This document shows, piece by piece, positions 1 through 10,805 of a stretch of DNA of 64,000 bases. The number at the start of each line of letters is the position of its first letter. Within the stretch, counting starts at the first letter, position 1. The position numbers and the translations under genes were made by a program. The notes beneath the pieces were generated by a model. That model was not told where the DNA came from and made no database searches. It was given only the letters and a program-made list of their open reading frames with translations. Origin of the DNA: a bacterium (GTDB lineage: Bacteria; Patescibacteriota; Minisyncoccia; Phycocordibacterales; UBA1006); the NCBI GenBank assembly GCA_030433255.1, contig JAUIMI010000001.1, positions 23,378 to 87,377 of the forward strand, given 5' to 3'.

Positions 1-41
1 CTTGTTTGGGATTTTAGTAATTATCTCTATAATAGAATTAT

Positions 42-236
42 ATGAATACAGAACTAAAACGACCATCATGGGATGAATATTTTATTGAAATCATGTATAT
101 GGTTGGGAAACGTGGAACCTGCGATCGTGGTCAGGTTGGATCAGTTATCACCCGTGATAATCGTATATTGGCAACAGGGTATGCTGGAGCTCCATCAGGC
201 ATTGCACATTGTGATGATGTCGGGCATGAAATGCAT
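42..236 (+). pseudogene. dCMP deaminase (ComEB-like) 5' fragment, interrupted after ~64 codons; the ORF runs on to 335 through element-derived sequence
   Basis: N-terminal RPSWDEYF...GTCDRGQVGSVI..ILATGYAGAP.G.AHCDDVGHEM matches the dCMP/cytidine deaminase N-terminus. Similarity stops after HEM at ~233 and the zinc motifs HAE/PCxxC are missing from this ORF. Confidence 0.6.
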
Positions 237-303
237 ATGGTTACGCATGACGGTGGAAGTACATCCAAATCTTTGATGAAGTTCGACAATATTATATCAA
301 ATG

Positions 304-329
304 AAAACCCTTCAAAAGAAGGGTTTTTT
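304..329. terminator. Hairpin AAAACCC-n10-GGGTTTTTT, bidirectional terminator-like
   Basis: Perfect 7-bp GC-containing stem with flanking A/T runs at the end of the minus-strand lipoprotein gene. Confidence 0.45.
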
Positions 330-344
330 AATTAAAATTTTAGA

Positions 345-1469
345 CTACTTATACCAAGTATCAGTACCAGGAACTGAAATTGGCCATCCAGAACCAAATG
401 GTCGCACACTAGGAACTACATTATCAATATCTACCACTAACACTCCACTTACATAGAAATCATCATTAAAAACTGACCACGTGTTATACACATTTGCAGG
501 CCATCTTTGACCTCGTTGAAAAACTACCTGAGCATTATCTTGATCTGCATTACCTTCATCAGTAACAATATAATTTTTATACTGCTTGAATGATTTAATT
601 TCGGCAGCATCAGCACAGCCAATGGTAAAAGTTTTAATATGATTAGGGTCAGTATCCCTGGTATCTAAGTACGCTCTAGGTAAACTAGATGCAGCATAGT
701 GGACATTTGGGACTCCATTAATATATTCACTATCATCTAGATATGTTCCTGGACCAAGGCTAGAATTTGAAGAATTATTCAAATTAAAATCAGGTTCAAA
801 CGTTACATTATCAGACCACTCACCAAATGGATCATTTGTAATCCAAATCATAGCTGTTAGTAGGTAACGTTTGCCAGGATAAGAAGTAGACTCTTTAATA
901 CGATAACCATAAGCATCTGGAATCCATGAATCAGAAGATCCATTTCTTTGAGAAAAATTATTTGATTCTCTTCTTACATCTGGAATACTCTGTTTCTCTG
1001 AACGAATCACCTTGGATGATGAAAAAATCTCATTTACCTTGTTCTCATCAAGAGAAACATTTGTAATCATCATTTCCGATATATTATAAAGTTCTTGACT
1101 TCGAGAAACTGAACCGCTTGATTTTGATACATATTTTCCTATTTGTATCTCAGGCTCACTTTCTAAACCACTAATGCCCTTGTTAATTGTCTCATTAAAG
1201 GTAATTTGATTAGAATTTTCTGTTAACGGAACAAAGCCACGAAATGGTGTTCCTCCTAGTGAAAAATTATGTGTCACAACAATCGAGGATTTACTAATAC
1301 CCAATTGATTTATTTGTGACTCTAATTCCGAATAAGAAATAGGTTTTTCAAATAAAACTTGAAAATTAGATTCAGTATCAACTGCTGATTGCTCTTGCGA
1401 GAGGTCTTCATCTTTTGAACAAGAAGTTATCATTGCTGAAATTGCAATGATCATAAGAAATTTTTTCAT
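345..1469 (-). CDS. Hypothetical lipoprotein (signal peptide + lipobox ITSC)
   Basis: The N-terminus MKKFLMIIAISAMITSCSKDE is typical of a lipoprotein signal. No recognisable catalytic motif. Lies within the inserted element. Confidence 0.5.
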   Translation of the reverse strand: MKKFLMIIAISAMITSCSKDEDLSQEQSAVDTESNFQVLFEKPISYSELESQINQLGISKSSIVVTHNFSLGGTPFRGFVPLTENSNQITFNETINKGISGLESEPEIQIGKYVSKSSGSVSRSQELYNISEMMITNVSLDENKVNEIFSSSKVIRSEKQSIPDVRRESNNFSQRNGSSDSWIPDAYGYRIKESTSYPGKRYLLTAMIWITNDPFGEWSDNVTFEPDFNLNNSSNSSLGPGTYLDDSEYINGVPNVHYAASSLPRAYLDTRDTDPNHIKTFTIGCADAAEIKSFKQYKNYIVTDEGNADQDNAQVVFQRGQRWPANVYNTWSVFNDDFYVSGVLVVDIDNVVPSVRPFGSGWPISVPGTDTWYK

Positions 1470-1549
1470 AAAAAAGTATTTAATTGTTTATAGAACAAAA
1501 TTGTTCGAAGTAAGATTAACTTATTTCTTTAAAAATGTAAAATAATAAC

Positions 1550-2005
1550 ATGAAAATTTTACGAACTTATTTAAAGAAAATTATCATCTCTTTAATTGTA
1601 TATATAATACTAAGATATATTCTCCTTAATATAATAGGATATAGCCATCTTATTAACTCTGATTATCTAACACTTATATTAATTTTTATTAGTCCGCTTT
1701 TACATATATTTTCATATCTATTTCTTATAAAAAAGATATTCAAAAAAGACATATTATCTAATATAATTCTATATCTATTTAACAATAACATTTACTTCTT
1801 ATATTCATATCTTTCATATCATCTCATTTATGAGTCTTTTTACGTATATCAGCCATTTTTTACAGGCAACCCTCCTGAAGATTTTATACTAGTTGATGCT
1901 TTTAGTAGTGTTCATTTTATGAGTAAGATGAGTTTTATATTATTTATTACAAGTTTTTTTCTTCTTATATTATTTATTACTATAAGAAGAAAATATTTTA
2001 AATAG
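1550..2005 (+). CDS. Hypothetical small membrane protein (very hydrophobic, I/L/F/Y-rich)
   Basis: ORF in an extremely AT-rich stretch with several predicted TM helices. It could be spurious. Confidence 0.3.
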   Translation: MKILRTYLKKIIISLIVYIILRYILLNIIGYSHLINSDYLTLILIFISPLLHIFSYLFLIKKIFKKDILSNIILYLFNNNIYFLYSYLSYHLIYESFYVYQPFFTGNPPEDFILVDAFSSVHFMSKMSFILFITSFFLLILFITIRRKYFK

Positions 2006-2516
2006 CATTAATTGTATTCAAAATATCTTGGATCTTTTTTGAATACAACTCCCCAACCTTCACTCTATAAAACTTAATACCAACTGAATTCAAAATATCA
2101 TCCTTAATCTTGTCATACTTTCCTTGTTTTTCTGTATCATGTGATTTTCCGTCAAGCTCAATAACTGCAAGGATATTTCCATAATGATTATCTAAAATTA
2201 CAAAATCAAGATGTTTTGATTTAATATAATTTCTTTTAATACCTTTCTCTTTCCAATCAAGTGATTTCTTTGCACTAACGATATCTTCCAATCTTACTTT
2301 TGAAAGAATCGTATATTGATTATTATTTTGTTTCACTAATTCATTGAAAAAAGTTTTCTCTGATTGAGTAAAGAAATATTTTTTAAGGGTGAAATATGGA
2401 CCAATATTATCTATTGGTTTTTTATCTATTTCAGAGTTATTTTCTGAAGATTTTAATTTCTGAATAACGATGTATGCAATGAATACAAGAGCAACAAGAA
2501 TAAATAGTGATTTCAT
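1998..2516 (-). CDS. DUF2726-like (restriction-endonuclease-fold/NERD-like) domain protein with N-terminal TM helix
   Basis: Pattern HLDFVILD...ILAVIELDGKSH...KDDILNSVGIKFYRV resembles the DUF2726 signature (DFVI.D..xxAIELDxxxH...D..L...GI...R). Confidence 0.4.
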   Translation of the reverse strand: MKSLFILVALVFIAYIVIQKLKSSENNSEIDKKPIDNIGPYFTLKKYFFTQSEKTFFNELVKQNNNQYTILSKVRLEDIVSAKKSLDWKEKGIKRNYIKSKHLDFVILDNHYGNILAVIELDGKSHDTEKQGKYDKIKDDILNSVGIKFYRVKVGELYSKKIQDILNTINAI

Positions 2517-2744
2517 AATATAACTGGATTATTTGATAAATGAACCCAGCACAAAACTCCCCACAGAGAGTTCTGAGCAAAGCTCACATATCCGTTTCCA
2601 GATACGACCAGACGAAAGCGAAAAGTGAACCCCTATGAGGAGTTTTCTACTTTCGTCTGGAATTTTTACACCATACCTCTTTCAAGGGTTAGGTTTATCA
2701 ATTTCGTATTTAATTACCTATATTTTAATATATAATTTTTATAT

Positions 2745-3584
2745 ATGGAAATAACTCCTGAAAATAAACAAATACTTAAAGTCATTAATGCACTTATTGA
2801 AAAACGACATAACTCTAAATACATCAATGAATGCCCATTTTCTGTTGTAACTCTTAAGCACCTAGAATTAATAGATCTTGATTGTTTTGAAGCATCACGA
2901 CTTTTTAATGATTTAAAAAATTACGAAGCTATTGAATTAACCAATGAAGAAGAATTTAAGAAAGTGGTCGAAATGATCGGTGAAGAAATAATGATAAAAG
3001 TTGATGAGAAGATTAAAAAAGGAAAAAGCTCATATAAACAAGTACAAAAGAATCTTGAAAATATGATGAAATATGTAGGAATTGAACCTACTAAAGAAGA
3101 ACTTAAAAAAGATATCACCCTAAAGGAATTAGAATCTTTTAAAAAACGAGTAACAAATACCATTGATGAGGAACTTCTGAAATCAAAAGAAATTGGTATT
3201 TATAAGATCAAGAAAGATCTCCATAAGATGCGAAGATATATCTTAGGTGGGCGTGATTTCTATAATATGGATAAAGAGTTTTTAAGTTTAGATGTAGAAA
3301 CTCAAATTATTGATTTAAACGGTAGACTTATTTCAATTAAACAAAATCCTCCCCTGAAAGGACAATATCTCCTTGAATACATTTTAAAAAATGATGCAAA
3401 GAAAAAATATCCTCTTGATGAACTTGTAGAAGATAATGTTATTCCAGACGGAAACAAAAGGACATATATTGATGCTGTGATCAATTTAAATAAACGAGTT
3501 AAAAAAGAAACTCACGGAGACATCAATGACTTACTTAAAAAATCAGGAGATTATTATTTCATCAAAGATCAATATACTATGTAG
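2745..3584 (+). CDS. Hypothetical protein (element cargo)
   Basis: Clean 279-aa ORF, K/E-rich, no recognised motif. Followed by hairpin AACTCGCAG-n15-CTGCGAGTT at ~3637-3670. Confidence 0.45.
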   Translation: MEITPENKQILKVINALIEKRHNSKYINECPFSVVTLKHLELIDLDCFEASRLFNDLKNYEAIELTNEEEFKKVVEMIGEEIMIKVDEKIKKGKSSYKQVQKNLENMMKYVGIEPTKEELKKDITLKELESFKKRVTNTIDEELLKSKEIGIYKIKKDLHKMRRYILGGRDFYNMDKEFLSLDVETQIIDLNGRLISIKQNPPLKGQYLLEYILKNDAKKKYPLDELVEDNVIPDGNKRTYIDAVINLNKRVKKETHGDINDLLKKSGDYYFIKDQYTM

Positions 3585-3964
3585 TTGAGTAAAATACTCA
3601 ACTAAGCTCAACAAGTGAAATGAAAAAATAAAACTCGCAGGGACGCCTCTGGCTGCTGCGAGTTTTATCATGCACAATTACTCACAACAACTCATGAAAA
3701 AATATCAAGACTACATGAAAACAACTCATGGGATTTTTGTTGATGATGATACGGCTCAAATATACCTCGAAAGTTTCGCCACCGTCTTCCTTGCATTACG
3801 AAAACTAATCACAGACGAATAGACTTTTCTTTCGTGGTACTTGTAAATCAAAACTATGAATATCGTCAATGAGCGAAGCGAAATTGATGATGTGAATAGT
3901 TTTGATACAAGTACATGCACAGAAGAAAGTCTATGTGATTACTTTTATTAATCTAATATTATTT

Positions 3965-3995
3965 GTTGCCGTAGTATAGTATTACCTACGGCAAC
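3965..3995 (+). other. Putative rolling-circle origin stem-loop: GTTGCCGTAG-[TATAGTATTAC]-CTACGGCAAC, loop containing nonanucleotide TAGTATTAC
   Basis: Perfect 10-bp inverted repeat with an 11-nt loop. The loop contains the exact circovirus/nanovirus nonanucleotide (nick site), 21 bp upstream of the rep start codon. Confidence 0.7.
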
Positions 3996-4016
3996 TTCTG
4001 GTAACACAAAAACTAT

Positions 4017-4940
4017 ATGACCAATAAAACATCACGAAATTACATATTTACCGTGAACAATTATACGCACAGAATGTTGAAAAAATTTAAACAAATAGCC
4101 AAGTCTTTAGACAAGCATAAATATATTTGCTTTGGACTTGAAGTAGCCCCTGAAACTGGAAACAAACATATTCAGGGATACATTCAATTAAAAGATAGGA
4201 AGAAATTTACCTTCCTTCATGATTATTTTGATCTCCACAAAAAAGGAAAGCAGGATAAATTCCATATTGAATATGCCAATGGCAGTGTTAAGCAAAATCA
4301 ACAATACACCTCTAAAACAAGAGATGAGGACGAAGTACCTAATAAGGTATGGCTTGAATACGGAACACCTACAAAACAAGGTAAACGAACAGATCTTACA
4401 GACCTGAAAGAAAAATTACGAAAAGATCCAAAATCTTTGAGAGAACTTATGAAAGAAGATGTAGTAAGTACACAACAAATGAGATTTGTTGAGGGAATGC
4501 AAAAATATATGTTCTCACACAGAGACCCTAAAAAACCACCAAAGGTGTTTTGGATTTATGGATCAACAGGAAAAGGAAAAACAAAATTAATTTACGACTC
4601 ATTTGAAAGTGTTTGTCCGGTATCAGATTTTAAATGGCCTGGAAATTTCTACTTTCAAGAAGAGTGCCTGTTATTTGATGACTTTCGAGCAGGAGATATT
4701 CCATTCCATACCCTACTTAAGATAGTTGATAGGTATCCTTATACCTTAGCTGTAAAAGGAAGTTTTGTACCACTTAATTCTCCATTCATTGTTATTACTA
4801 GTCCGAAATCAATCAGAAAAACTTTTAACGAATTTCATGAAGACTTAAAACAACTTGAACGAAGAATTAAGGCTGAGATTAATATTGATGCTGAAGAAAT
4901 TGAAAACCTTAAAGAATACATAGGACTAGAAGATTTCTAG
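4017..4940 (+). CDS. rep: Rolling-circle replication initiator Rep, CRESS-DNA/circovirus-like (HUH endonuclease + SF3 helicase)
   Basis: Motif I FTVNNY, motif II KHIQGY (HxQ), motif III YTSK, GTPTKQGKRTDLTDL (cf. circoviral G.P..QGKRSDL), Walker A GSTGKGKT, Walker B LLFDDF, motif C ITSP. Confidence 0.85.
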   Translation: MTNKTSRNYIFTVNNYTHRMLKKFKQIAKSLDKHKYICFGLEVAPETGNKHIQGYIQLKDRKKFTFLHDYFDLHKKGKQDKFHIEYANGSVKQNQQYTSKTRDEDEVPNKVWLEYGTPTKQGKRTDLTDLKEKLRKDPKSLRELMKEDVVSTQQMRFVEGMQKYMFSHRDPKKPPKVFWIYGSTGKGKTKLIYDSFESVCPVSDFKWPGNFYFQEECLLFDDFRAGDIPFHTLLKIVDRYPYTLAVKGSFVPLNSPFIVITSPKSIRKTFNEFHEDLKQLERRIKAEINIDAEEIENLKEYIGLEDF

Positions 4941-4966
4941 TTTTTTATTCACTATTATTAATTTTA

Positions 4967-6574
4967 TTGTATAGTCAAAATATGAAGTATATAATCTACG
5001 CACGTAAATCAACCGATGACTCAGGGAAACAACAATTATCTCTTGAATCTCAAATTACTGAAATGCGTGGACTCGCAAAAATGAATCATCTTGAAATAGT
5101 AAAAGAATTTCAAGAATCACAATCAGCAAAAACTGCAGGACGACCAATCTTTGCAGAAATGTTGCAATACATTCAGGATGGACATGCTGATGCTATTTTA
5201 TGTTGGAAATTAGATAGATTATCACGTAACCCTATTGATACCGGAACTATAACCAGTTTGTTACAAAATAACATCATCAAAGAAATCAAAACCTACCAAA
5301 AGACTTACTACCCTGGTGATAATGCTATTGTAATGGCAGTTGAGCTTGCTATGGCTAATCAATACTCACGTGATCTTTCTACAAATGTAAAACGTGGACT
5401 ACGTACGAAACTCAAAAATGGAGATTGGCCATGGGTTGCACCAATTGGGTACTTAAATGACACAATTAACAAAAGTATTGTGATTGATCCAAAATCATCA
5501 AAATATATCAAGAAGGCTTTTGAGATGTATGCAACTGGGAACTATTCGTATAAAGATATTGAAAAGATTCTCTATGAAAAAGGATTCCGAAGTAAATCAG
5601 GTAAAAAAGTAAGCCATGCCCTTCTCCATCATTCACTAACTAATACTTTCTATTATGGAATTATGGAGCGCCAAGGAGAATATTTTAAAGGAAAGCATAA
5701 ACCAATCATTTCAAAGAAATTATTTGATGAATGTGAAAAGATCCGACTAGGTCATAACAAACCACGACGCAAGAAGCATGTATTCCCCCTGCGAGGTCTT
5801 TTAACTTGTGAGGTATGTGGTTGCCTCATTACTGCTGAGAAACAACGAGGAATTGATTACTATCACTGTACCAATGGAAAAGGTATTTGTGACCAAAAGA
5901 AAAAATTTGTTAGAGGAGAAGAATTAGAAAAACAAATCTTCAATGCCGTGGAAGATGTATGTTTCGATGAAGATATGATTGAAATTATCCATGAAGCAGC
6001 CTTAGAAAAATTCTACTCAGAAAATAAGAATAGAAATGATCATAAGGAAGAGTTAGAGCAGGAGTTACATTTACTTAAATTAAAAGAAGACAAATTATTA
6101 GATTCTATGTTAGATGGAAAAGTTGATAATGATATCTATGAAAAGAAATCAAAATCACTGAAACTAGAACGTCTTGATTTAGAACAAAGAATCGCTCGAA
6201 ATAGTGTAAATATTAAAAAAGAGCTATCTACTTTCGAACAAGCTAAAAATGCTCTAAAAACCTTATATACCTTCAAGATAGCCTATTCTGATGCTGAACC
6301 CATCAAAAAACGTGAGATTTCTTTTGAGTTACTTTCGAATATGACTCTAAAAGACCGAAAAGTCCTTACTGTACAACACAAAAGCCCCTATTCACTACTC
6401 GTAAATAAGGGTAAAAACGTTAGTTTTTCTGAAATGCTCACAACACTGTATTCGAACAACACATGCAGAACAAAATGCTATTGTTTCTGCAGCACGACAT
6501 GGCGTAGCTGTCGAAGGTGGAACATTGTATTGCAAAATGACACCATGTTATACCTGCGCAAAACTTATTATTAA
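4967..6574 (+). CDS. Large serine recombinase (resolvase/invertase catalytic domain + recombinase domain + zinc ribbon); the last ~45 codons are read from host DNA across the right junction
   Basis: Catalytic Ser motif IYARKSTDDSGKQQLSLESQ; Zn ribbon CEVCGC...YYHCTNGKGIC; C-terminal coiled-coil region. The ORF tail overlaps the dCMP deaminase 3' fragment in another frame. Confidence 0.85.
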   Translation: MYSQNMKYIIYARKSTDDSGKQQLSLESQITEMRGLAKMNHLEIVKEFQESQSAKTAGRPIFAEMLQYIQDGHADAILCWKLDRLSRNPIDTGTITSLLQNNIIKEIKTYQKTYYPGDNAIVMAVELAMANQYSRDLSTNVKRGLRTKLKNGDWPWVAPIGYLNDTINKSIVIDPKSSKYIKKAFEMYATGNYSYKDIEKILYEKGFRSKSGKKVSHALLHHSLTNTFYYGIMERQGEYFKGKHKPIISKKLFDECEKIRLGHNKPRRKKHVFPLRGLLTCEVCGCLITAEKQRGIDYYHCTNGKGICDQKKKFVRGEELEKQIFNAVEDVCFDEDMIEIIHEAALEKFYSENKNRNDHKEELEQELHLLKLKEDKLLDSMLDGKVDNDIYEKKSKSLKLERLDLEQRIARNSVNIKKELSTFEQAKNALKTLYTFKIAYSDAEPIKKREISFELLSNMTLKDRKVLTVQHKSPYSLLVNKGKNVSFSEMLTTLYSNNTCRTKCYCFCSTTWRSCRRWNIVLQNDTMLYLRKTYY

Positions 6575-6704
6575 CGCAGGGATAAGGCGAGTGGTAGCAG
6601 CAAAAGATTATCATGCCGGGGCACGTAGTAAAGAAATTTTTACCGAAGCAGGTATCGCATACGAATTACTTGATTCAAATATTGAATCATATGATAACCA
6701 ATAA
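6423..6704 (+). pseudogene. dCMP deaminase 3' fragment (zinc-binding HAEQNAI and PCYTCAKLIINAGIRRV motifs); no start codon of its own
   Basis: Translating codon phase 0 from 6423 gives VFLKCSQHCIRTTHAEQNAIVSAARHGVAVEGGTLYCKMTPCYTCAKLIINAGIRRVVAAKDYH...*. Together with 42..233 this makes a full-length (~150 aa) ComEB-like deaminase. Confidence 0.65.
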
Positions 6705-6709
6705 TATTT

Positions 6710-7039
6710 ATGATTGATTTACAACAATTACAAAAAGAAACCTATCAAAATAAATTAGACAAAGGTTTCAATACAACTGATATTGCTTTGGAGTTTTGTC
6801 GTGCCCACGAAGAATTATCAGAAGCATTTAAAAAATACAACCAAGATGAAGACGGAGTAGGTGAAGAGTTGGCTGATGTAGCTATTTTTCTATTAGGTAT
6901 TTCTGAAATTATGGGGTTTGATTTAGAAACAGAATTAGTAAATAAAATGGAAAAAAACAAAAAACGAAAATACACCACACACATCAATAAAGATGGAAAA
7001 AAAGTATTCATGCGCGTAGCAACAGAAGAAGATAAATAA
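6710..7039 (+). CDS. MazG-like nucleoside triphosphate pyrophosphohydrolase (small all-alpha NTP-PPase)
   Basis: EExxE...EELADVAIFLL metal-binding motif arrangement of MazG/HisE-type NTP-PPases. Confidence 0.6.
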   Translation: MIDLQQLQKETYQNKLDKGFNTTDIALEFCRAHEELSEAFKKYNQDEDGVGEELADVAIFLLGISEIMGFDLETELVNKMEKNKKRKYTTHINKDGKKVFMRVATEEDK

Positions 7040-7064
7040 AAAACCAGCAATTACTGGTTTTTTA
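7039..7064 (+). terminator. Rho-independent terminator AAAACCAG-caatta-CTGGTTTTTT
   Basis: Stem plus T-run immediately after the stop. Confidence 0.6.
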
Positions 7065-7117
7065 TTTTATTTATGATTAAATTAATAAAAAGAAGTTTAA
7101 TTAAAAAAGAATAAAAT

Positions 7118-7453
7118 ATGCCGTTTATTAGAATTATTTCTCAAGATAAATTATCTGATCTAAATAGAAAATTATCTATTAAAAAATTAATAAAAAGAAT
7201 AAAATACTATACTTCACAGGAATTAAAGGTAAATACTTTTTCTGTTGAAGTTACTGAAGCTGGTTTATATGACGAACTCGCAAGTGAGATTGAAATTCGA
7301 ATCACAGCAGATCAAAATCCTATAAGAAATCCTCGAGTGGATATGTATGCTTCAAATATTGAAAAAGATTTAAGTTCTCATACTGAGTATAGAACTAAAT
7401 GTAGAGTTTTTCTTTTTTTAGAAAGAATTGGTTTTGATCAAGAGAAAGGGTAA
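7118..7453 (+). CDS. Hypothetical small protein
   Basis: 111-aa ORF followed by a strong terminator. No recognised motif (begins MPF..., a tautomerase-like start is speculation). Confidence 0.35.
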   Translation: MPFIRIISQDKLSDLNRKLSIKKLIKRIKYYTSQELKVNTFSVEVTEAGLYDELASEIEIRITADQNPIRNPRVDMYASNIEKDLSSHTEYRTKCRVFLFLERIGFDQEKG

Positions 7454-7458
7454 TTATA

Positions 7459-7494
7459 AGAGCCAATTTTGCAAAACAAAATTGGCTCTTTTTA
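7459..7494 (+). terminator. Rho-independent terminator AAGAGCCAATTTTG-caaaac-AAAATTGGCTCTTTTT
   Basis: Perfect 14-bp inverted repeat followed by a T-run. Confidence 0.65.
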
Positions 7495-7553
7495 AATCTC
7501 AAAAAATAAATTTAACAAGTCTTTTTGTCGTTATGATTTGGTATACTAAAAAC

Positions 7554-8765
7554 ATGAAAGATACAAAGATAAAAAATCTACTCGCGGCAGAAAAAAAACG
7601 TCAAAAAAAAGTGGTTAATTTGATTGCATCAGAGAACTATGTATCTGATGATGTGCTCAAGGCTCTTGGTTCAGAAACGACAAACAAATATGCGGAAGGA
7701 TATCCAGGAAAACGATACTATGCAGGAAATGTTATTGTAGACCAAATTGAAACCTTGGCGCAGGAACGTGCATTAACATTATTTAAACTTAATCCTAAAA
7801 AATGGGGGGTTAACGTACAACCACTTTCAGGTTCACCAGCAAATATTGCTGTGTACCAAGCGTTAATAACACCAGGTGCAAAAATTATGGGAATGGATTT
7901 AGCTCAAGGAGGACACCTTACTCATGGACACAATGTGTCATTTTCTGGAAAATTCTGGAAACAAGTCCCATATACCTTGGACAAGAAAACAGAAAAATTA
8001 GACTATGATGCACTGCTTACATTAGCTAAAAAAGAAAAACCAGCCATTATTGTCGCAGGGTACACCGCTTATTCACGAAAAATTAGCTGGAAAAAAATGC
8101 GCGAAATTGCAGACACCGTTGGTGCATATTTATTGGTTGATATGTCACATATTGCAGGGTTAGTTGCAGGTGGAGAACATCCAGCACCATTCAAATATGC
8201 GCACGTTGTTACCACAACAACCCACAAAACATTACGTGGTCCACGTGGAGGAATGATTTTTGCACCAAAAGATGTTTTTATAGAACGAACCTTAAAAAAT
8301 GGAACGCTAAAAAAAGAAAGTATTTTTGATCTCATTCAAAAATCAGTTTTTCCTGGTATGCAAGGCGGACCACACATTAACCAAATTGCAGGAATTGCTG
8401 TGGCACTAAAGGAAGCAAACACGGCATCATTTAAAAAATATGCTGGGCAGGTGGTAAAGAATACTAAAACTTTAGCAAATGAATTAAAAAAACTTGGTTG
8501 GAGAATTATTTCTGGTGGAACTGATAATCATGTATTTTTAATGGATGTATGGAATGATGGGAAAGGTCTTACAGGAAAAGAAGCTTCAGATATATTAGAA
8601 GCTGCCGGAATTATTGTAAATATGAATACGATTCCATATGACGCGCGGTCCCCATTTAATCCTTCTGGTATCCGTATTGGTTGTGCAGCTGAAACAACGC
8701 GTGGTAAAAAAGAAAAAGATATGCTACAACTTGCTCGCCAAATTGATAAAATTTTGCGAAAATAG
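7554..8765 (+). CDS. glyA: Serine hydroxymethyltransferase
   Basis: YAEGYPGKRYYAGN and the PLP-lysine region VVTTTTHKTLRGPRGG. The start is taken at MKDTKIKNLL (7554), not the upstream ORF start 7428, which lies inside the terminator. Confidence 0.9.
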   Translation: MKDTKIKNLLAAEKKRQKKVVNLIASENYVSDDVLKALGSETTNKYAEGYPGKRYYAGNVIVDQIETLAQERALTLFKLNPKKWGVNVQPLSGSPANIAVYQALITPGAKIMGMDLAQGGHLTHGHNVSFSGKFWKQVPYTLDKKTEKLDYDALLTLAKKEKPAIIVAGYTAYSRKISWKKMREIADTVGAYLLVDMSHIAGLVAGGEHPAPFKYAHVVTTTTHKTLRGPRGGMIFAPKDVFIERTLKNGTLKKESIFDLIQKSVFPGMQGGPHINQIAGIAVALKEANTASFKKYAGQVVKNTKTLANELKKLGWRIISGGTDNHVFLMDVWNDGKGLTGKEASDILEAAGIIVNMNTIPYDARSPFNPSGIRIGCAAETTRGKKEKDMLQLARQIDKILRK

Positions 8766-8769
8766 AATT

Positions 8770-9876
<1,107 letters not shown>

Positions 9877-9896
9877 GGTTTTTTGGTAGATGTTTT

Positions 9897-10748
9897 TTAT
9901 ACTGATATTGGTGCAGAAATTTTATCATGAGGATTGTATCTTTCAAGAGTAAAATCATCAAACGTAAAATCATCAATATTTGTGATATCAGGATTAATTT
10001 TCATTATAGGCATTTCTCTGATATCATTTTCCCGTGATAATTGAAGCTCAACCTGATCAAAGTGATTATTGTAAATATGCATATCTCCAAAAGTATGAAT
10101 GAATTCACCTGGCTGGTAACCGCATACTTGGGCCATCATCATGGTGAACAGTGCATATGATGCAATGTTAAAAGGTACTCCTAAAAATGTGTCAGCGCTT
10201 CGTTGGTATAGTTGGCATGATAGTTTTCCATCAGCTACATAAAACTGAAAGAATGCATGGCAGGGAGGAAGTGCTGCTTTACCATTTGCTACATTTTCAC
10301 TAAAACTTTTTGAAGTATCAGGCATAACACTAGGGTTCCATGCAGAAACTAACATTCTTCGTGAATTTGGATTATTTTTTAAGGTATCAATAACTTCTTT
10401 TAATTGATCGATATCATCATCATTCCAATTACGCCATTGTTTCCCATACACAGGCCCCAGGTTTCCATGTTCATCAGCCCATTCATTCCAGATACGGACA
10501 TTATTTTCTTTTAAGTAATTAATATTCGTATCTCCTTTTATAAACCATAATAGTTCGTAAATAATAGATTTTAGATGAACTTTTTTACCTGAGATTAATG
10601 GAAAACCTTTTGATAAATCAAAACGCATTTGATATCCAAAAATACTTTTTGTTCCTGTCCCTGTCCGGTCACCTTTTTGATGTCCATTTTCAACAATATA
10701 TCTCAATGCGTTATTATAGATAACATCTACATTTTTTAAATCTTTCAT
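9897..10748 (-). CDS. thyA: Thymidylate synthase
   Basis: [19 protein letters not shown], folate-binding region, active-site region [12 protein letters not shown]. Confidence 0.92.
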
Positions 10749-10805
10749 AATTATTTTAGTTTTAAGGTTTATTTTTAATAATAAAATTTAAAAAATAAAA
10801 GTCAA

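What the first reader, a model, noticed from the sequence alone, without database searches (positions are those of the whole stretch)
234..6432. Integrated CRESS-DNA-like (circovirus-type Rep) element with a large serine recombinase, inserted within a dCMP deaminase gene
A ~6.2 kb block separates the two halves of a ComEB-like dCMP deaminase gene. It encodes a Rep with the full set of CRESS-DNA virus/pCRESS-plasmid HUH and SF3 helicase motifs. Upstream of rep is a canonical nonanucleotide origin stem-loop. At the right end is a large serine recombinase. Cargo includes a lipoprotein, a small membrane protein, a DUF2726-like nuclease-fold protein and a hypothetical protein. This combination suggests a circular rolling-circle ssDNA replicon (plasmid or virus-like) that integrates and excises through a serine recombinase. 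If the host is indeed a reduced-genome bacterium, an integrated circovirus-like replicon would be unusual. No capsid gene is recognisable, so an integrative pCRESS-type plasmid is at least as likely as a provirus.
Basis: partly seen in the sequence, partly recalled or inferred. Interest (0 to 1): 0.9.

Follow-up and report, generated by a model that had tools for sequence, protein, structure and literature searches.

The report
Integrative circovirus-type Rep plasmid in Patescibacteria
A 6.2-kb mobile element that carries a circovirus-type rolling-circle replication gene and a large serine integrase has inserted into, and split, a dCMP deaminase gene of an ultra-small (candidate phyla radiation) bacterium, and it belongs to a large family of such elements that I could not find described in the literature.

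Summary
Window 266-6439 (6174 bp) is an insertion that splits a dCMP deaminase gene. Two contigs that are 97.7% identical in the flanks carry the intact gene, and the junctions overlap by only 2 nt (TC). This is the footprint of a large serine recombinase (LSR).

The element encodes:
- an intact HUH/SF3 Rep (Pfam Viral_Rep and RNA_helicase; best solved structure PCV2 Rep);
- a 10-bp stem with TAGTATTAC in the loop, 22 nt upstream of rep;
- an LSR whose ORF runs across attR.

It is one member of a distinct Rep clade (44-84% identity) found on contigs mostly labelled Patescibacteria. In about 40 loci with sequence downstream of rep (a few redundant), an LSR always follows, sometimes after 1-2 small ORFs. 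In 35 of 38 loci the origin hairpin is conserved and its stems covary. Most relatives sit at the 3' ends of tRNA genes. The deaminase site copies the tRNA T-loop motif ATTCGAAC in the same register.

No capsid was found, so an integrative rolling-circle plasmid is the best reading. Integrated pCRESS plasmids are known (Kazlauskas 2019), but they use tyrosine recombinases in other phyla. I therefore call this a new variant of a known kind. The element also carries a LOOT RNA just upstream of a nuclease gene.

The parts
42..265 (+). dCMP deaminase, N-terminal half (host gene, interrupted). In the integrated state the ORF continues to 335 with 23 element-encoded residues.
   Evidence: PF00383 positions 2-50. 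97.7% identical to L004 4206-4469, which continues as an intact gene.
264..265 (+). attL crossover dinucleotide TC
   Evidence: 2-nt overlap of the two alignments of empty-site contigs L004/L005 with the window.
266..301 (+). P' arm of attP. It holds GTTCGAC at +16..+22 from the core and encodes the last 12 codons plus stop of the LSR in the circular form (QIFDEVRQYYIK*).
   Evidence: The motif sits in the same register in L003. The attP ZD-motif position agrees with PMC3783163.
304..327 (.). Hairpin AAAACCCTTC/GAAGGGTTTT followed by a T run. Likely a bidirectional terminator between the LSR tail (circular form) and the convergent lipoprotein gene.
345..1469 (-). Cargo: 374-aa lipoprotein (signal peptide ending in Cys) with an N-terminal alpha/beta domain and a C-terminal beta-sandwich. 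Surface or adhesin-like, not a capsid.
1550..2005 (+). Cargo: 151-aa hydrophobic ORF (GC about 20%), function unknown.
   Evidence: No family in Pfam, PHROGs, NCBIfam or PADLOC.
1998..2516 (-). Cargo: DUF2726 protein with an N-terminal TM helix and a PD-(D/E)xK-like nuclease fold.
   Evidence: PF10881 at 8e-25, with weaker hits to DUF559 and MTES_1575.
2574..2695 (-). LOOT RNA (Rfam RF03000), 57 nt upstream of the DUF2726 gene and in the same orientation.
   Evidence: 63.9 bits against a gathering score of 46.4, full-length match. The same arrangement recurs in relatives.
2745..3584 (+). Core gene: 279-aa protein conserved upstream of rep across the family (fam4/fam5). Predicted mostly helical. 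Possible OmpR-like winged helix at the C-terminus (weak support).
   Evidence: The AF2 model was unusable, pLDDT 37.
3628..3668 (.). Perfect 13-bp hairpin with flanking A and T runs, between the 279-aa ORF and the 50-aa ORF. Terminator-like.
   Evidence: (inverted repeat I6).
3670..3822 (+). Core gene: 50-aa ORF conserved immediately upstream of the origin and rep in most relatives. Possible regulator or recombination directionality factor (inferred).
   Evidence: tblastn hits in many loci.
3847..3906 (.). Imperfect 24-nt inverted repeat between the 50-aa ORF and the origin, function unknown. Candidate single-strand origin or regulatory site (inferred).
   Evidence: inverted repeat I1.
3965..3995 (+). 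Rolling-circle origin: 10-bp stem with an 11-nt loop holding TAGTATTAC (3977-3985).
   Evidence: Equivalent hairpins with covarying stems occur in 35 of 38 related loci.
4017..4940 (+). Rep: HUH endonuclease plus SF3 helicase, 307 aa.
   Evidence: Pfam. PCV2 Rep 7LAR at 2e-18 over residues 7-268. About 110 homologues at 44-84% identity.
4967..6574 (+). Large serine recombinase. The probable start is the ATG at 4982. The element-encoded part ends at 6439. Codons 6440-6574 are read from host deaminase DNA in another frame.
6395..6437 (+). P arm of attP, inside the 3' end of the LSR gene. Conserved in relatives.
   Evidence: Junction alignment.
6438..6439 (+). attR crossover dinucleotide TC
6438..6704 (+). 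dCMP deaminase, C-terminal half (host). The B' arm holds ATTCGAAC at +11..+18 from the core.
   Evidence: PF00383 positions 51-101..

Best explanation
Window 266-6439 is an integrated, probably still mobile, plasmid-like replicon of a Patescibacteria (candidate phyla radiation) bacterium.

In its circular double-stranded form, the large serine recombinase (LSR) recombines attP with an attB inside the host dCMP deaminase gene. attP lies inside the last codons of the LSR's own gene. The exchange takes place at a TC dinucleotide. It splits the deaminase gene and replaces the last 12 LSR codons with 44 host-derived codons.

After LSR-mediated excision, Rep would nick the TAGTATT/AC loop of the origin hairpin 22 nt upstream of its gene. 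It would then drive rolling-circle replication through a single-stranded intermediate, as in circoviruses and pCRESS plasmids. Excision presumably needs a directionality factor, which was not identified.

What is shown: the insertion, its exact borders, the 2-nt core, the empty site, the domain content, and the family-wide conservation of the 285-aa ORF, small ORF, origin, rep and LSR. What is inferred: replication, excision and the circular form.

The remaining genes are cargo: a surface lipoprotein, a membrane protein and a LOOT-RNA/DUF2726 nuclease cassette.
For: **Insertion and empty site**
- L004 and L005 are 97.7% identical to both flanks.
- They join window 265 to window 6438 with a 2-nt overlap, and they encode an intact 162-aa deaminase that is 96-97% identical.
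- The same integrated copy, 100% identical, occurs in two independent read sets.

**Replication module**
- Rep passes Pfam thresholds, and its best solved relative is full-length PCV2 Rep.
- The origin hairpin is stable, z = -4.9.
- It is conserved with covarying stems and an (T)AGTATTAC loop in 35 of 38 loci.

**Integration module**
- The LSR has the Resolvase + Recombinase + Zn-ribbon architecture.
- An LSR follows rep in all of about 40 loci that have downstream sequence, a few of them redundant.
- LSR homology ends exactly at the junction in every locus. The sequence beyond it is usually the 3' end of a tRNA gene.
- The deaminase B' arm has ATTCGAAC at +11..+18. This is the same register as the T-loop of tRNA-Asn in L006, L007 and L102, whose LSRs are 73-76% identical.
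- The P' arm has GTTCGAC at +16..+22, a 5-bp outward shift. This matches the attP/attB rule for serine integrases (PMC3783163).

**Possible free form**
- L003 has Rep 83% and LSR 85% identical (tblastn).
- It carries P arm, TC and a P'-like arm with GTTCGAAC at +16..+23, with different cargo.

**No capsid:**
Against: - No circular or attP junction of this exact element was found. No related contig had terminal overlaps, and the attP junction is absent from IMG/VR.
- L003 is not closed, and reading it as attP rests on a single half-site motif.
- The other half-sites (B and P arms) do not show the motif clearly (read directly from the sequences).
- No recombination directionality factor and no single-strand origin were identified.
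- The 279-aa core protein has no assigned fold, so a structural role is not formally excluded.
- The host assignment rests only on the names of best-hit proteins and of MAG records. One close relative is labelled Crocinitomicaceae.
Confidence: 0.8

Rival explanations
1. It is a provirus of a CRESS-type single-stranded DNA virus that infects Patescibacteria. One of the unassigned proteins, most plausibly the conserved 279-aa family, would be a novel capsid protein.
For: Outside its own clade, the nearest Rep relatives are 2-2.5 kb circular IMG/VR contigs (27-36% identity). Of the seven examined, most carry a second ORF with a basic, mostly Arg-rich N-terminus, as CRESS capsid genes do, and five show terminal overlaps. 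These are closer than any plasmid in PLSDB, where the only hit is p4M at 30% over 66% of the query. The 279-aa protein is a core gene of unknown fold.
Against: The 279-aa protein has no Arg-rich N-terminus and is predicted mostly helical, though the model is of low confidence. One member weakly matches Trans_reg_C. The lipoprotein is adhesin-like and has no viral match. PHROGs gives no structural hit. Cargo of relatives shows no virion genes. Cargo is variable, as in plasmids. The integrated pCRESS elements described so far also lack capsids (PMC6668415).
Confidence: 0.08
2. Rep works mainly as a relaxase-like initiator for horizontal transfer of the excised element as single-stranded DNA, as in an integrative mobilisable element. 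Transfer would use host competence or pilus machinery or another element, rather than Rep maintaining a plasmid copy number.
For: HUH Reps and relaxases share their chemistry (established knowledge). The element has no partition or copy-control genes recognisable in Pfam. It was seen integrated in all three sources that hold this exact element.
Against: No coupling protein, FtsK/Tra or type IV secretion gene occurs in the element or in the cargo scanned in relatives. The SF3 helicase domain and the origin next to rep are the replication arrangement of circoviruses and pCRESS plasmids. This reading does not exclude the main one.
Confidence: 0.1
3. It is an immobile remnant: a decayed island fixed in this lineage, whose Rep and LSR no longer function.
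For: No circular form of this element was observed. In the integrated state the LSR C-terminus is replaced by 44 host-derived residues.
Against: All core ORFs are intact. The origin hairpin is perfect. Presence and absence are polymorphic among strains that are 97.7% identical. The copies are 100% identical across samples. Both deaminase halves still match the intact homologue closely, with 100% tblastn identity over the C-terminal 88 residues to a query rebuilt from the window's own halves, which is itself 96-97% identical to the intact P0121. That suggests a recent insertion.
Confidence: 0.05

Closest known systems
Integrated pCRESS plasmids (pCRESS1-6, 8; Kazlauskas et al. 2019, PMC6668415)
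   Same: Both are bacterial elements encoding a circovirus-like HUH + SF3 Rep. Both integrate site-specifically into the chromosome, often in tRNA genes but sometimes in protein genes. Both carry variable cargo and no capsid gene. Among PLSDB plasmids, the only hit to this Rep is p4M, the namesake of the pCRESS1-3 cluster.
   Different: The described elements use tyrosine recombinases and are flanked by direct-repeat att sites. They were reported from four other phyla. The supplements held as text (one file truncated) do not mention a serine recombinase or Parcubacteria; other CPR names were not searched. Here the integrase is a large serine recombinase with a 2-nt core, attP lies inside the 3' end of the integrase gene, and the labelled hosts are mostly Patescibacteria. 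Rep identity to p4M is only 30% over 66% of the protein. Placement among pCRESS1-9 was not tested.
CRESS-DNA viruses (Cressdnaviricota; e.g. Circoviridae, PCV2 Rep, PDB 7LAR)
   Same: Same Rep domain order and motifs. Same TAGTATTAC nonanucleotide in a stem-loop just upstream of rep. The best solved-structure match is PCV2 Rep. The nearest relatives outside the clade are 2-2.5 kb circular contigs, most with a second ORF that has a basic N-terminus.
   Different: No capsid gene was found. The element is 6.2 kb and carries bacterial cargo. It encodes an integrase, sits in a bacterial chromosome, and has a lipoprotein with a bacterial signal peptide.
Serine-integrase prophages and excisable elements that interrupt host genes (Listeria A118 in comK, Bacillus SPbeta in spsM, the skin element in sigK, the Anabaena fdxN element with XisF)
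   Same: Same LSR architecture. NCBIfam shows similarity to CcrA/B/C and XisF, all far below the equivalog cut-offs. Insertion lies within a protein-coding gene, the core is 2 nt, there are no long direct repeats, and the ZD-motif offset between attP and attB is as in PMC3783163. The named examples are from my own knowledge.
   Different: Those elements are double-stranded DNA phages or developmental excision elements. None carries a circovirus-type Rep and origin. Here most family members target tRNA 3' ends, and this member targets a tRNA-like sequence inside a coding gene.
Actinomycete integrative elements of the pSAM2 type (AICEs)
   Same: They work alike: site-specific integration (often in tRNA genes), excision, then rolling-circle replication by an element-encoded HUH Rep (from my own knowledge).
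   Different: AICEs use tyrosine integrases, a Rep of a different family without the SF3 helicase, and an FtsK-like Tra protein for transfer. None of these was found here.

Membership tests
CRESS-type Rep (HUH endonuclease + SF3 helicase) | N-terminal HUH nuclease with motifs I (FTxNN), II (HxQ) and III (YxxK) | tested here: met
   PF02407 at 46.6 bits against a cut-off of 26. FTVNN, HIQGY and YTSK are read from the sequence. H51, Q53 and Y97 are invariant in a 38-sequence alignment.
CRESS-type Rep (HUH endonuclease + SF3 helicase) | C-terminal SF3 helicase with Walker A, Walker B and motif C | tested here: met
   PF00910 at 24.9 bits against a cut-off of 21.5. GSTGKGKT and LLFDDF are present. 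The match to PCV2 Rep runs over residues 7-268.
CRESS-type replicon | Origin: nonanucleotide (T/n)A(G/t)TATTAC in the loop of a stem-loop next to rep | tested here: met
   3965-3995, loop TATAGTATTAC, 22 nt upstream of rep. Found in 35 of 38 relatives with covarying stems.
Cressdnaviricota (viruses) | A capsid protein gene (jelly-roll, usually with a basic N-terminus) | tested here: not met
   No Pfam or PHROGs structural hit. The lipoprotein model has no BFVD match and resembles pilins/adhesins. The 279-aa ORF could not be modelled, so this negative is incomplete.
Cressdnaviricota / pCRESS | A small circular molecule is demonstrable | tested here: inconclusive
   No contig has terminal overlaps. 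The attP junction is not in IMG/VR. The related contig L003 shows an attP-like junction but is not closed.
Integrated pCRESS plasmids (Kazlauskas 2019) | Site-specific chromosomal integration with definable att borders | tested here: met
   Empty site in L004 and L005, and exact borders.
Integrated pCRESS plasmids (Kazlauskas 2019) | Tyrosine-recombinase integrase and flanking direct repeats | tested here: not met
   The integrase is a serine recombinase. The junctions share only 2 nt.
Integrated pCRESS plasmids (Kazlauskas 2019) | Rep falls within one of the clades pCRESS1-9 | tested here: inconclusive
   The only plasmid hit is p4M, at 30% identity, 66% coverage and E 6e-8. No phylogeny with reference sequences could be built here.
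Large serine recombinases (serine integrases) | Resolvase catalytic domain + recombinase domain + zinc ribbon domain | tested here: met
   PF00239 at 4e-24, PF07508 at 1e-15, PF13408 at 2e-7. phrog_95 integrase at 1e-84.
Large serine recombinases (serine integrases) | Crossover at a 2-bp core without long att identity | tested here: met
   TC is the only overlap between the left and right junction alignments.
Large serine recombinases (serine integrases) | ZD-binding motif 5 bp closer to the core in attB than in attP (PMC3783163) | tested here: inconclusive
   Seen for one half-site pair: B' has ATTCGAAC at +11..18, P' has GTTCGAC at +16..22, and L003 has GTTCGAAC at +16..23. The B and P arms show no clear motif.
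Large serine recombinases (serine integrases) | A recombination directionality factor for excision | not testable with these tools
   Directionality factors have no common signature. The conserved 50-aa ORF (3670-3822) is only a candidate.
LOOT RNA (Rfam RF03000) | Score at or above Rfam's gathering threshold over the full model | tested here: met
   63.9 bits against 46.4, model positions 1-121. Further hits of 51-82 bits occur in related loci.
AICE (pSAM2-like) | FtsK-like Tra protein and a tyrosine integrase | tested here: not met
   Neither domain appears in any ORF of the element.

The most novel reading that the evidence does not exclude
The Patescibacteria rep-LSR elements may be the closest bacterial relatives, or even the source lineage, of the circovirus/nanovirus/smacovirus-type Reps. 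Some of them might package single-stranded DNA with a still unrecognised structural protein. That would make them the first CRESS-type viruses, or virus precursors, of bacteria, living in episymbionts that are often associated with eukaryotic and other cells. Separately, the LOOT RNA plus nuclease cassette may be a new RNA-controlled nuclease module, either toxin-antitoxin or defence.
Probability: 0.12. Interest if true: 0.9.

Novelty: new variant of a known kind. Interest (0 to 1): 0.6.

Why it matters
- **Few known elements in this host group.** Mobile elements of candidate phyla radiation bacteria are, to my knowledge, poorly known, and genetic tools for them are scarce (cf. PMC10633639, listed, not read). 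This family offers natural origin/Rep replicons and a panel of serine integrases. Their attP sites and their tRNA or gene attB sites can be read directly from the sequence.
- **Wider range for circovirus-like replicons.** The family extends circovirus-like Rep replicons to a fifth bacterial phylum and to a second, unrelated integration machinery. That bears on the proposal that CRESS-DNA viruses arose from bacterial plasmids (PMC6668415).
- **How an integrase lineage changes target.** The deaminase site reproduces a tRNA T-loop motif in the correct register. This is a clear example of how an integrase lineage can jump from tRNA genes to a coding gene.
- **First context for LOOT RNA.** LOOT is an orphan Rfam family. 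Here it gains a genomic and taxonomic context: it lies just upstream of small nuclease genes on these elements.

Tried and rejected
- **Exact look-up of the 307-aa Rep:** not on record. A 288-aa call of the same gene was found instead.
- **Source organism name:** not obtainable. Two cluster look-ups returned no names.
- **Circular form:** none of the 29 metagenome loci tested (L099-L127) has terminal overlaps. L003 has none either. Joining the L003 ends does not restore its NERD gene. The attP 22-mer is not in IMG/VR.
- **279-aa core protein:**
  - only 2 word-index homologues;
  - a profile search against PDB found nothing;
  - the AF2 model was unusable, pLDDT 37;
  - the OmpR-like winged-helix idea has only weak support: hhalign E 0.019, probability 2.5%, and one member matches Trans_reg_C at E 0.003.
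- **Lipoprotein as capsid:** rejected.
- **LOOT as a single-strand origin of the replicon:** rejected. Its orientation relative to rep and the origin varies, while its orientation and 40-57 nt spacing relative to the nuclease gene are constant.
- **PADLOC:** no defence-system hit for any gene of the element.
- **Literature:** searches for Patescibacteria or CPR combined with CRESS, Rep or serine recombinase found no description of such elements. Subscription journals are not covered.
- **Rep-mediated transposition (IS91/Helitron-like):** rejected because of the precise LSR-type junction and the empty site.

Full report

Yes.

- The ORF at 42-335 matches the cytidine/deoxycytidylate deaminase model PF00383 over profile positions 2-50. 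The frame at 6405-6704 matches positions 51-101. These are the two complementary halves of one domain.
- The Rep ORF (4017-4940) passes Pfam's curated cut-offs for Viral_Rep (46.6 bits against 26) and RNA_helicase (24.9 bits against 21.5).
- Rep carries FTVNN, HIQGY, YTSK, GSTGKGKT and LLFDDF. Its best match among solved structures is full-length porcine circovirus 2 Rep (7LAR, 2e-18, residues 7-268).
- Twenty-two nucleotides upstream of rep there is a perfect 10-bp stem (3965-3974 / 3986-3995). Its 11-nt loop is TATAGTATTAC. As single-stranded DNA it folds at -10.4 kcal/mol, z = -4.9 against shuffles.
- The nonamer occurs once in the 64 kb. That alone is not significant, since 43 of 100 shuffles have at least one. 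Its placement and conservation carry the weight (section 3).
- The ORF at 4967-6574 is a large serine recombinase (LSR): Resolvase + Recombinase + Zn_ribbon_recom, and phrog_95 'integrase' at 1e-84.

**2. Exact borders and the empty site**

I joined the two deaminase halves and searched with the result.

- This found an intact 162-aa dCMP deaminase that is 96% identical (P0121). Thousands of single-gene homologues read ...HDDGSTSQHCIRTTHAE... across the break.
- The contigs that encode P0121 are L004 (ENA ERZ27309150, 14.4 kb) and L005 (Logan SRR6747776). Both are about 97.7% identical to the window on both sides.
- L004 4206-4469 aligns to window 2-265. L004 4468-5071 aligns to window 6438-7041. 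The two alignments overlap by exactly 2 nt, TC.
- The insertion is therefore window 266-6439 (6174 bp). The crossover dinucleotide sits at 264-265 (attL) and 6438-6439 (attR).
- The gene order DHFR, dCMP deaminase, MazG-like, SHMT, ThyA is otherwise the same.
- A 100% identical integrated copy is present in two further read sets: L001 from ERR3428547 and L002 from SRR15635858.

A 2-nt shared core without longer direct repeats is what serine recombinases leave behind.

**3. It is one member of a large, coherent family**

- Rep has about 110 homologues at 44-84% identity. Identity then drops sharply to 36% or less.
- Many of the homologues lie on long contigs, up to 380 kb. The records that carry a name are labelled Candidatus Paceibacterota or Patescibacteria.
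- A scan of one genome per GTDB species found 13 loci. They are in MAGs labelled Paceibacteria, Nomurabacteria, Kaiserbacteria, Minisyncoccia and Saccharibacteria, plus one unlabelled 'uncultured bacterium' MAG and one 'Crocinitomicaceae' MAG that I suspect is mis-binned.
- The named best hits of the host deaminase are mostly Patescibacteria as well. I take this as the host assignment, but it rests only on names.
- In about 40 loci with sequence downstream of rep (a few redundant), an LSR gene follows. In a few loci 1-2 small ORFs intervene.
- Upstream of rep, most loci have a small ORF homologous to window 3670-3822. Upstream of that lies a protein of about 285 aa homologous to window 2745-3584. 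It forms two sub-families that align end to end.
- In 35 of 38 loci a hairpin lies 12-46 nt upstream of rep with (T)AGTATTAC in its loop. The stems differ but stay paired: gttgccgtag, agggtcgagg, tggttgccta, gaagtcggg, tatgtcgtg. I read this as covariation that supports function.
- To the left of this core, the cargo is variable.

**4. Integration mechanism and target choice**

I aligned the junctions at the end of LSR homology.

- The P arm is conserved and lies inside the last codons of the LSR gene. A core dinucleotide follows: TC in the window's sub-family, TG or TA in the others. Unrelated sequence comes next.
- In most loci that sequence is the 3' end of a tRNA gene in antisense orientation. 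It is tRNA-Asn in L006 (ARAGORN) and, by sequence similarity of the B' arm, in L007 and L102. It is tRNA-Gln in five genome loci, and tRNA-Ser in L008.
- So attP sits at the 3' end of the integrase gene throughout the family. The usual attB is the tip of a tRNA gene, which stays intact after integration.
- The LSRs of L006, L007 and L102 are 73-76% identical to the window's. Their B' arm reads ccccggtaggATTCGAACctacg, with the T-loop motif at +11..+18 from the core.
- The deaminase B' arm reads acaacactgtATTCGAACaacac, with the same octamer in the same register. The codons for CIRTTHAE thus mimic the tRNA half-site. This explains how a tRNA-targeting integrase lineage came to insert into a coding gene.
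- On the element side, the P' arm (window 266 onward) has GTTCGAC at +16..+22, which is 5 bp further out.
- Rutherford et al. (PMC3783163) showed that serine integrases read a zinc-ribbon-domain motif at half-site positions 16-24 in attP and 11-19 in attB, a 5-bp shift. The pair seen here fits that rule.
- The other two half-sites show no clear motif, so I rate this feature as only partly met.

**5. Consequence for the integrase gene**

- Rejoining 6439 to 266 gives a 498-aa LSR (from the ATG at 4982) that ends ...SEML-QIFDEVRQYYIK*.
- A hairpin with a T run at 304-327 follows immediately. It would terminate both the LSR gene and the convergent lipoprotein gene.
- In the integrated state the ORF instead runs 44 codons into the deaminase gene in another frame, giving 530 aa.
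- Whether this change of tail affects activity is unknown.

**6. A probable unintegrated relative**

- L003 (JGI 3300041950, 6521 bp) has Rep 83% and LSR 85% identical (tblastn).
- It is 80% identical at the DNA level from window 3663 to exactly 6439.
- Beyond the TC core, similarity collapses except for GAAGTTCGA in the same register as the window's P' arm. The LSR tail keeps '..EVR..'.
- The motif position (+16..+23) is that of an attP half-site, not an attB half-site.
- I therefore think L003 carries attP and represents a free form with different cargo: a 329-aa and a 222-aa protein, and a NERD nuclease in place of DUF2726. I put this at roughly 70%.
- The contig is not closed. Joining its ends does not restore the NERD gene.

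**7. Virus or plasmid?**

- The 374-aa lipoprotein gave a confident model: pLDDT 85, pTM 0.84.
- It has no match in the viral structure library at E <= 0.001, and all TM-scores are below 0.2.
- It has 205 homologues, some fused to Ig-like, BACON or PKD domains. I read it as a surface protein.
- The 279-aa core protein could not be modelled (pLDDT 37) and has no profile hit. It lacks a basic N-terminus and is predicted helical. Its C-terminus weakly resembles an OmpR-type winged helix.
- Cargo of relatives includes an EcoRI-type methyltransferase and a DnaJ protein, with no virion genes.
- The nearest Reps outside the clade lie on 2-2.5 kb IMG/VR contigs at 27-36% identity. Of the seven examined, five have terminal overlaps and most carry a second ORF with a basic, mostly Arg-rich N-terminus, as CRESS capsid genes do.
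- Among 72,556 plasmids, only Bifidobacterium p4M matches, at 30% identity, 66% coverage and E 6e-8.
- Best reading: an integrative rolling-circle plasmid whose Rep is close to viral Reps. A provirus with an unrecognised capsid remains possible at about 8%.

**8. Comparison with what is known**

- Kazlauskas et al. 2019 (PMC6668415) defined nine groups of bacterial plasmids with circovirus-like Reps (pCRESS1-9).
- They showed that 97.5% of the Reps outside groups 7 and 9 lie in elements integrated site-specifically. Most are in tRNA genes and some in protein genes. The integrases are tyrosine recombinases with direct-repeat att sites, and there are no capsid genes. The hosts span four phyla.
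- The present element works the same way but differs in four respects:
  - its integration module is an LSR with a 2-nt core;
  - its attP lies within the integrase gene;
  - its labelled hosts are mostly Patescibacteria;
  - its Rep clade is distinct.
- Full-text searches found no description of such elements. Subscription journals are not covered, so this negative is soft.
- Functionally it also parallels pSAM2-type actinomycete integrative elements and gene-interrupting serine-integrase prophages. That comparison is from my own knowledge.
- I file it as a new variant of a known kind.

**9. LOOT RNA**

- Rfam's LOOT family (RF03000) matches window 2574-2695 on the minus strand, at 63.9 bits against a gathering score of 46.4 and over the full model. 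From memory, LOOT is an orphan known only from metagenomes.
- It matches six other loci of this element family: L003, L015, L100, L110, L114 and L119. L015 and L119 hold the same element.
- In 6 of the 7 hits, a small nuclease-fold gene starts 40-57 nt downstream in the same orientation. The gene is DUF2726 in the window and L110, NERD in L003, and a 105-aa DUF559-like protein in L015/L119 and L114.
- The cassette occurs in either orientation relative to rep. It is therefore an RNA-plus-nuclease cargo module, not a replicon element such as a single-strand origin.
- Its function (5' leader, antitoxin or guide) is unknown.

**10. Verdict**

It is larger in other respects:
- a Patescibacteria-wide family with an obligatory rep-serine integrase pair;
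- att sites that can be read from the sequence;
- a documented switch of target from a tRNA gene to a coding gene;
- a home for LOOT RNA.

Interest 0.6.

Noticed in passing
window 2574-2695 (-); also L003 336-451, L015 8297-8413, L100 1773-1887, L110 4469-4584, L114 269-382, L119 1027-1143: LOOT RNA (Rfam RF03000) recurs in this element family. In 6 of 7 hits it lies 40-57 nt upstream of, and co-oriented with, a small PD-(D/E)xK-type nuclease gene (DUF2726, NERD or DUF559-like). Its orientation relative to rep varies. This looks like an RNA + nuclease cassette of unknown function, and it gives this orphan RNA family a genomic context.
   Followed up: partly
window 7042-7473: A second, 432-bp insertion relative to the empty-site contigs L004 and L005, between the MazG-like gene and SHMT. 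It holds one 111-aa ORF (7118-7453) with no family match and is bounded by terminator-like hairpins. The flanking alignments overlap by 8 nt. No mobility gene is present.
   Followed up: partly
window 1-10750 and L004 3629-9507: The insertion site lies inside a compact thymidylate-synthesis cluster: DHFR, dCMP deaminase, MazG-like, SHMT, thymidylate synthase and dNK/thymidylate kinase. The element therefore inactivates one step of dTTP supply while it is integrated. Whether that benefits a replicon that needs dNTPs is unknown.
   Followed up: no
window 6440-6574 and 266-301: Integration swaps the last 12 codons of the integrase (QIFDEVRQYYIK) for 44 codons read from the deaminase gene in another frame. 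In the tRNA-targeting relatives, the integrase ORF similarly runs antisense into the tRNA. This is a possible built-in difference between the episomal and integrated forms of the enzyme.
   Followed up: partly
L110 7624-7907: A group I intron (RF00028, 78.6 bits) lies 25 nt beyond the end of the serine recombinase gene in a related element, where other relatives have a tRNA gene. The nearest tRNA is 500 nt further on.
   Followed up: no
L008 12393-12480: The tRNA that abuts the recombinase gene is called tRNA-Ser with the unusual anticodon ACT, and a normal tRNA-Ser(GCT) lies 270 nt away. It may be a chimeric or duplicated tRNA created by integration.
   Followed up: no
L006 (JBLIKX010000007.1) and protein P0127: A MAG labelled Crocinitomicaceae (Bacteroidota) carries a close relative of the element (LSR 73% identical). 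A protein labelled Crocinitomicaceae is a dCMP deaminase 81% identical to the host's (same MAG not verified), while nearly all other named relatives are Patescibacteria. This is probably a mis-binned contig or a mislabelled MAG. The lipoprotein's CSKDED sequence after the signal peptide does, however, resemble a Bacteroidota surface-export signal.
   Followed up: no
window 345-1469 (-): The cargo lipoprotein belongs to a family of about 205 proteins that has no Pfam model. They share a conserved C-terminal beta-sandwich (residues about 178-338), and some are fused to Ig-like, BACON or PKD domains. This is a new surface-protein domain family.
   Followed up: partly
window 8638-9876: The listed ORF contains a run of (PE) repeats (PEPEPEPE...) in a protein downstream of SHMT. 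Relative to the window, the homologous gene in L004 is shorter (364 aa).
   Followed up: no
L015 6333-7454 (-): A related element carries an EcoRI-type adenine methyltransferase (PF13651, 4e-125) among its cargo, next to the LOOT/DUF559-like nuclease cassette. It may be a restriction-modification cargo.
   Followed up: no
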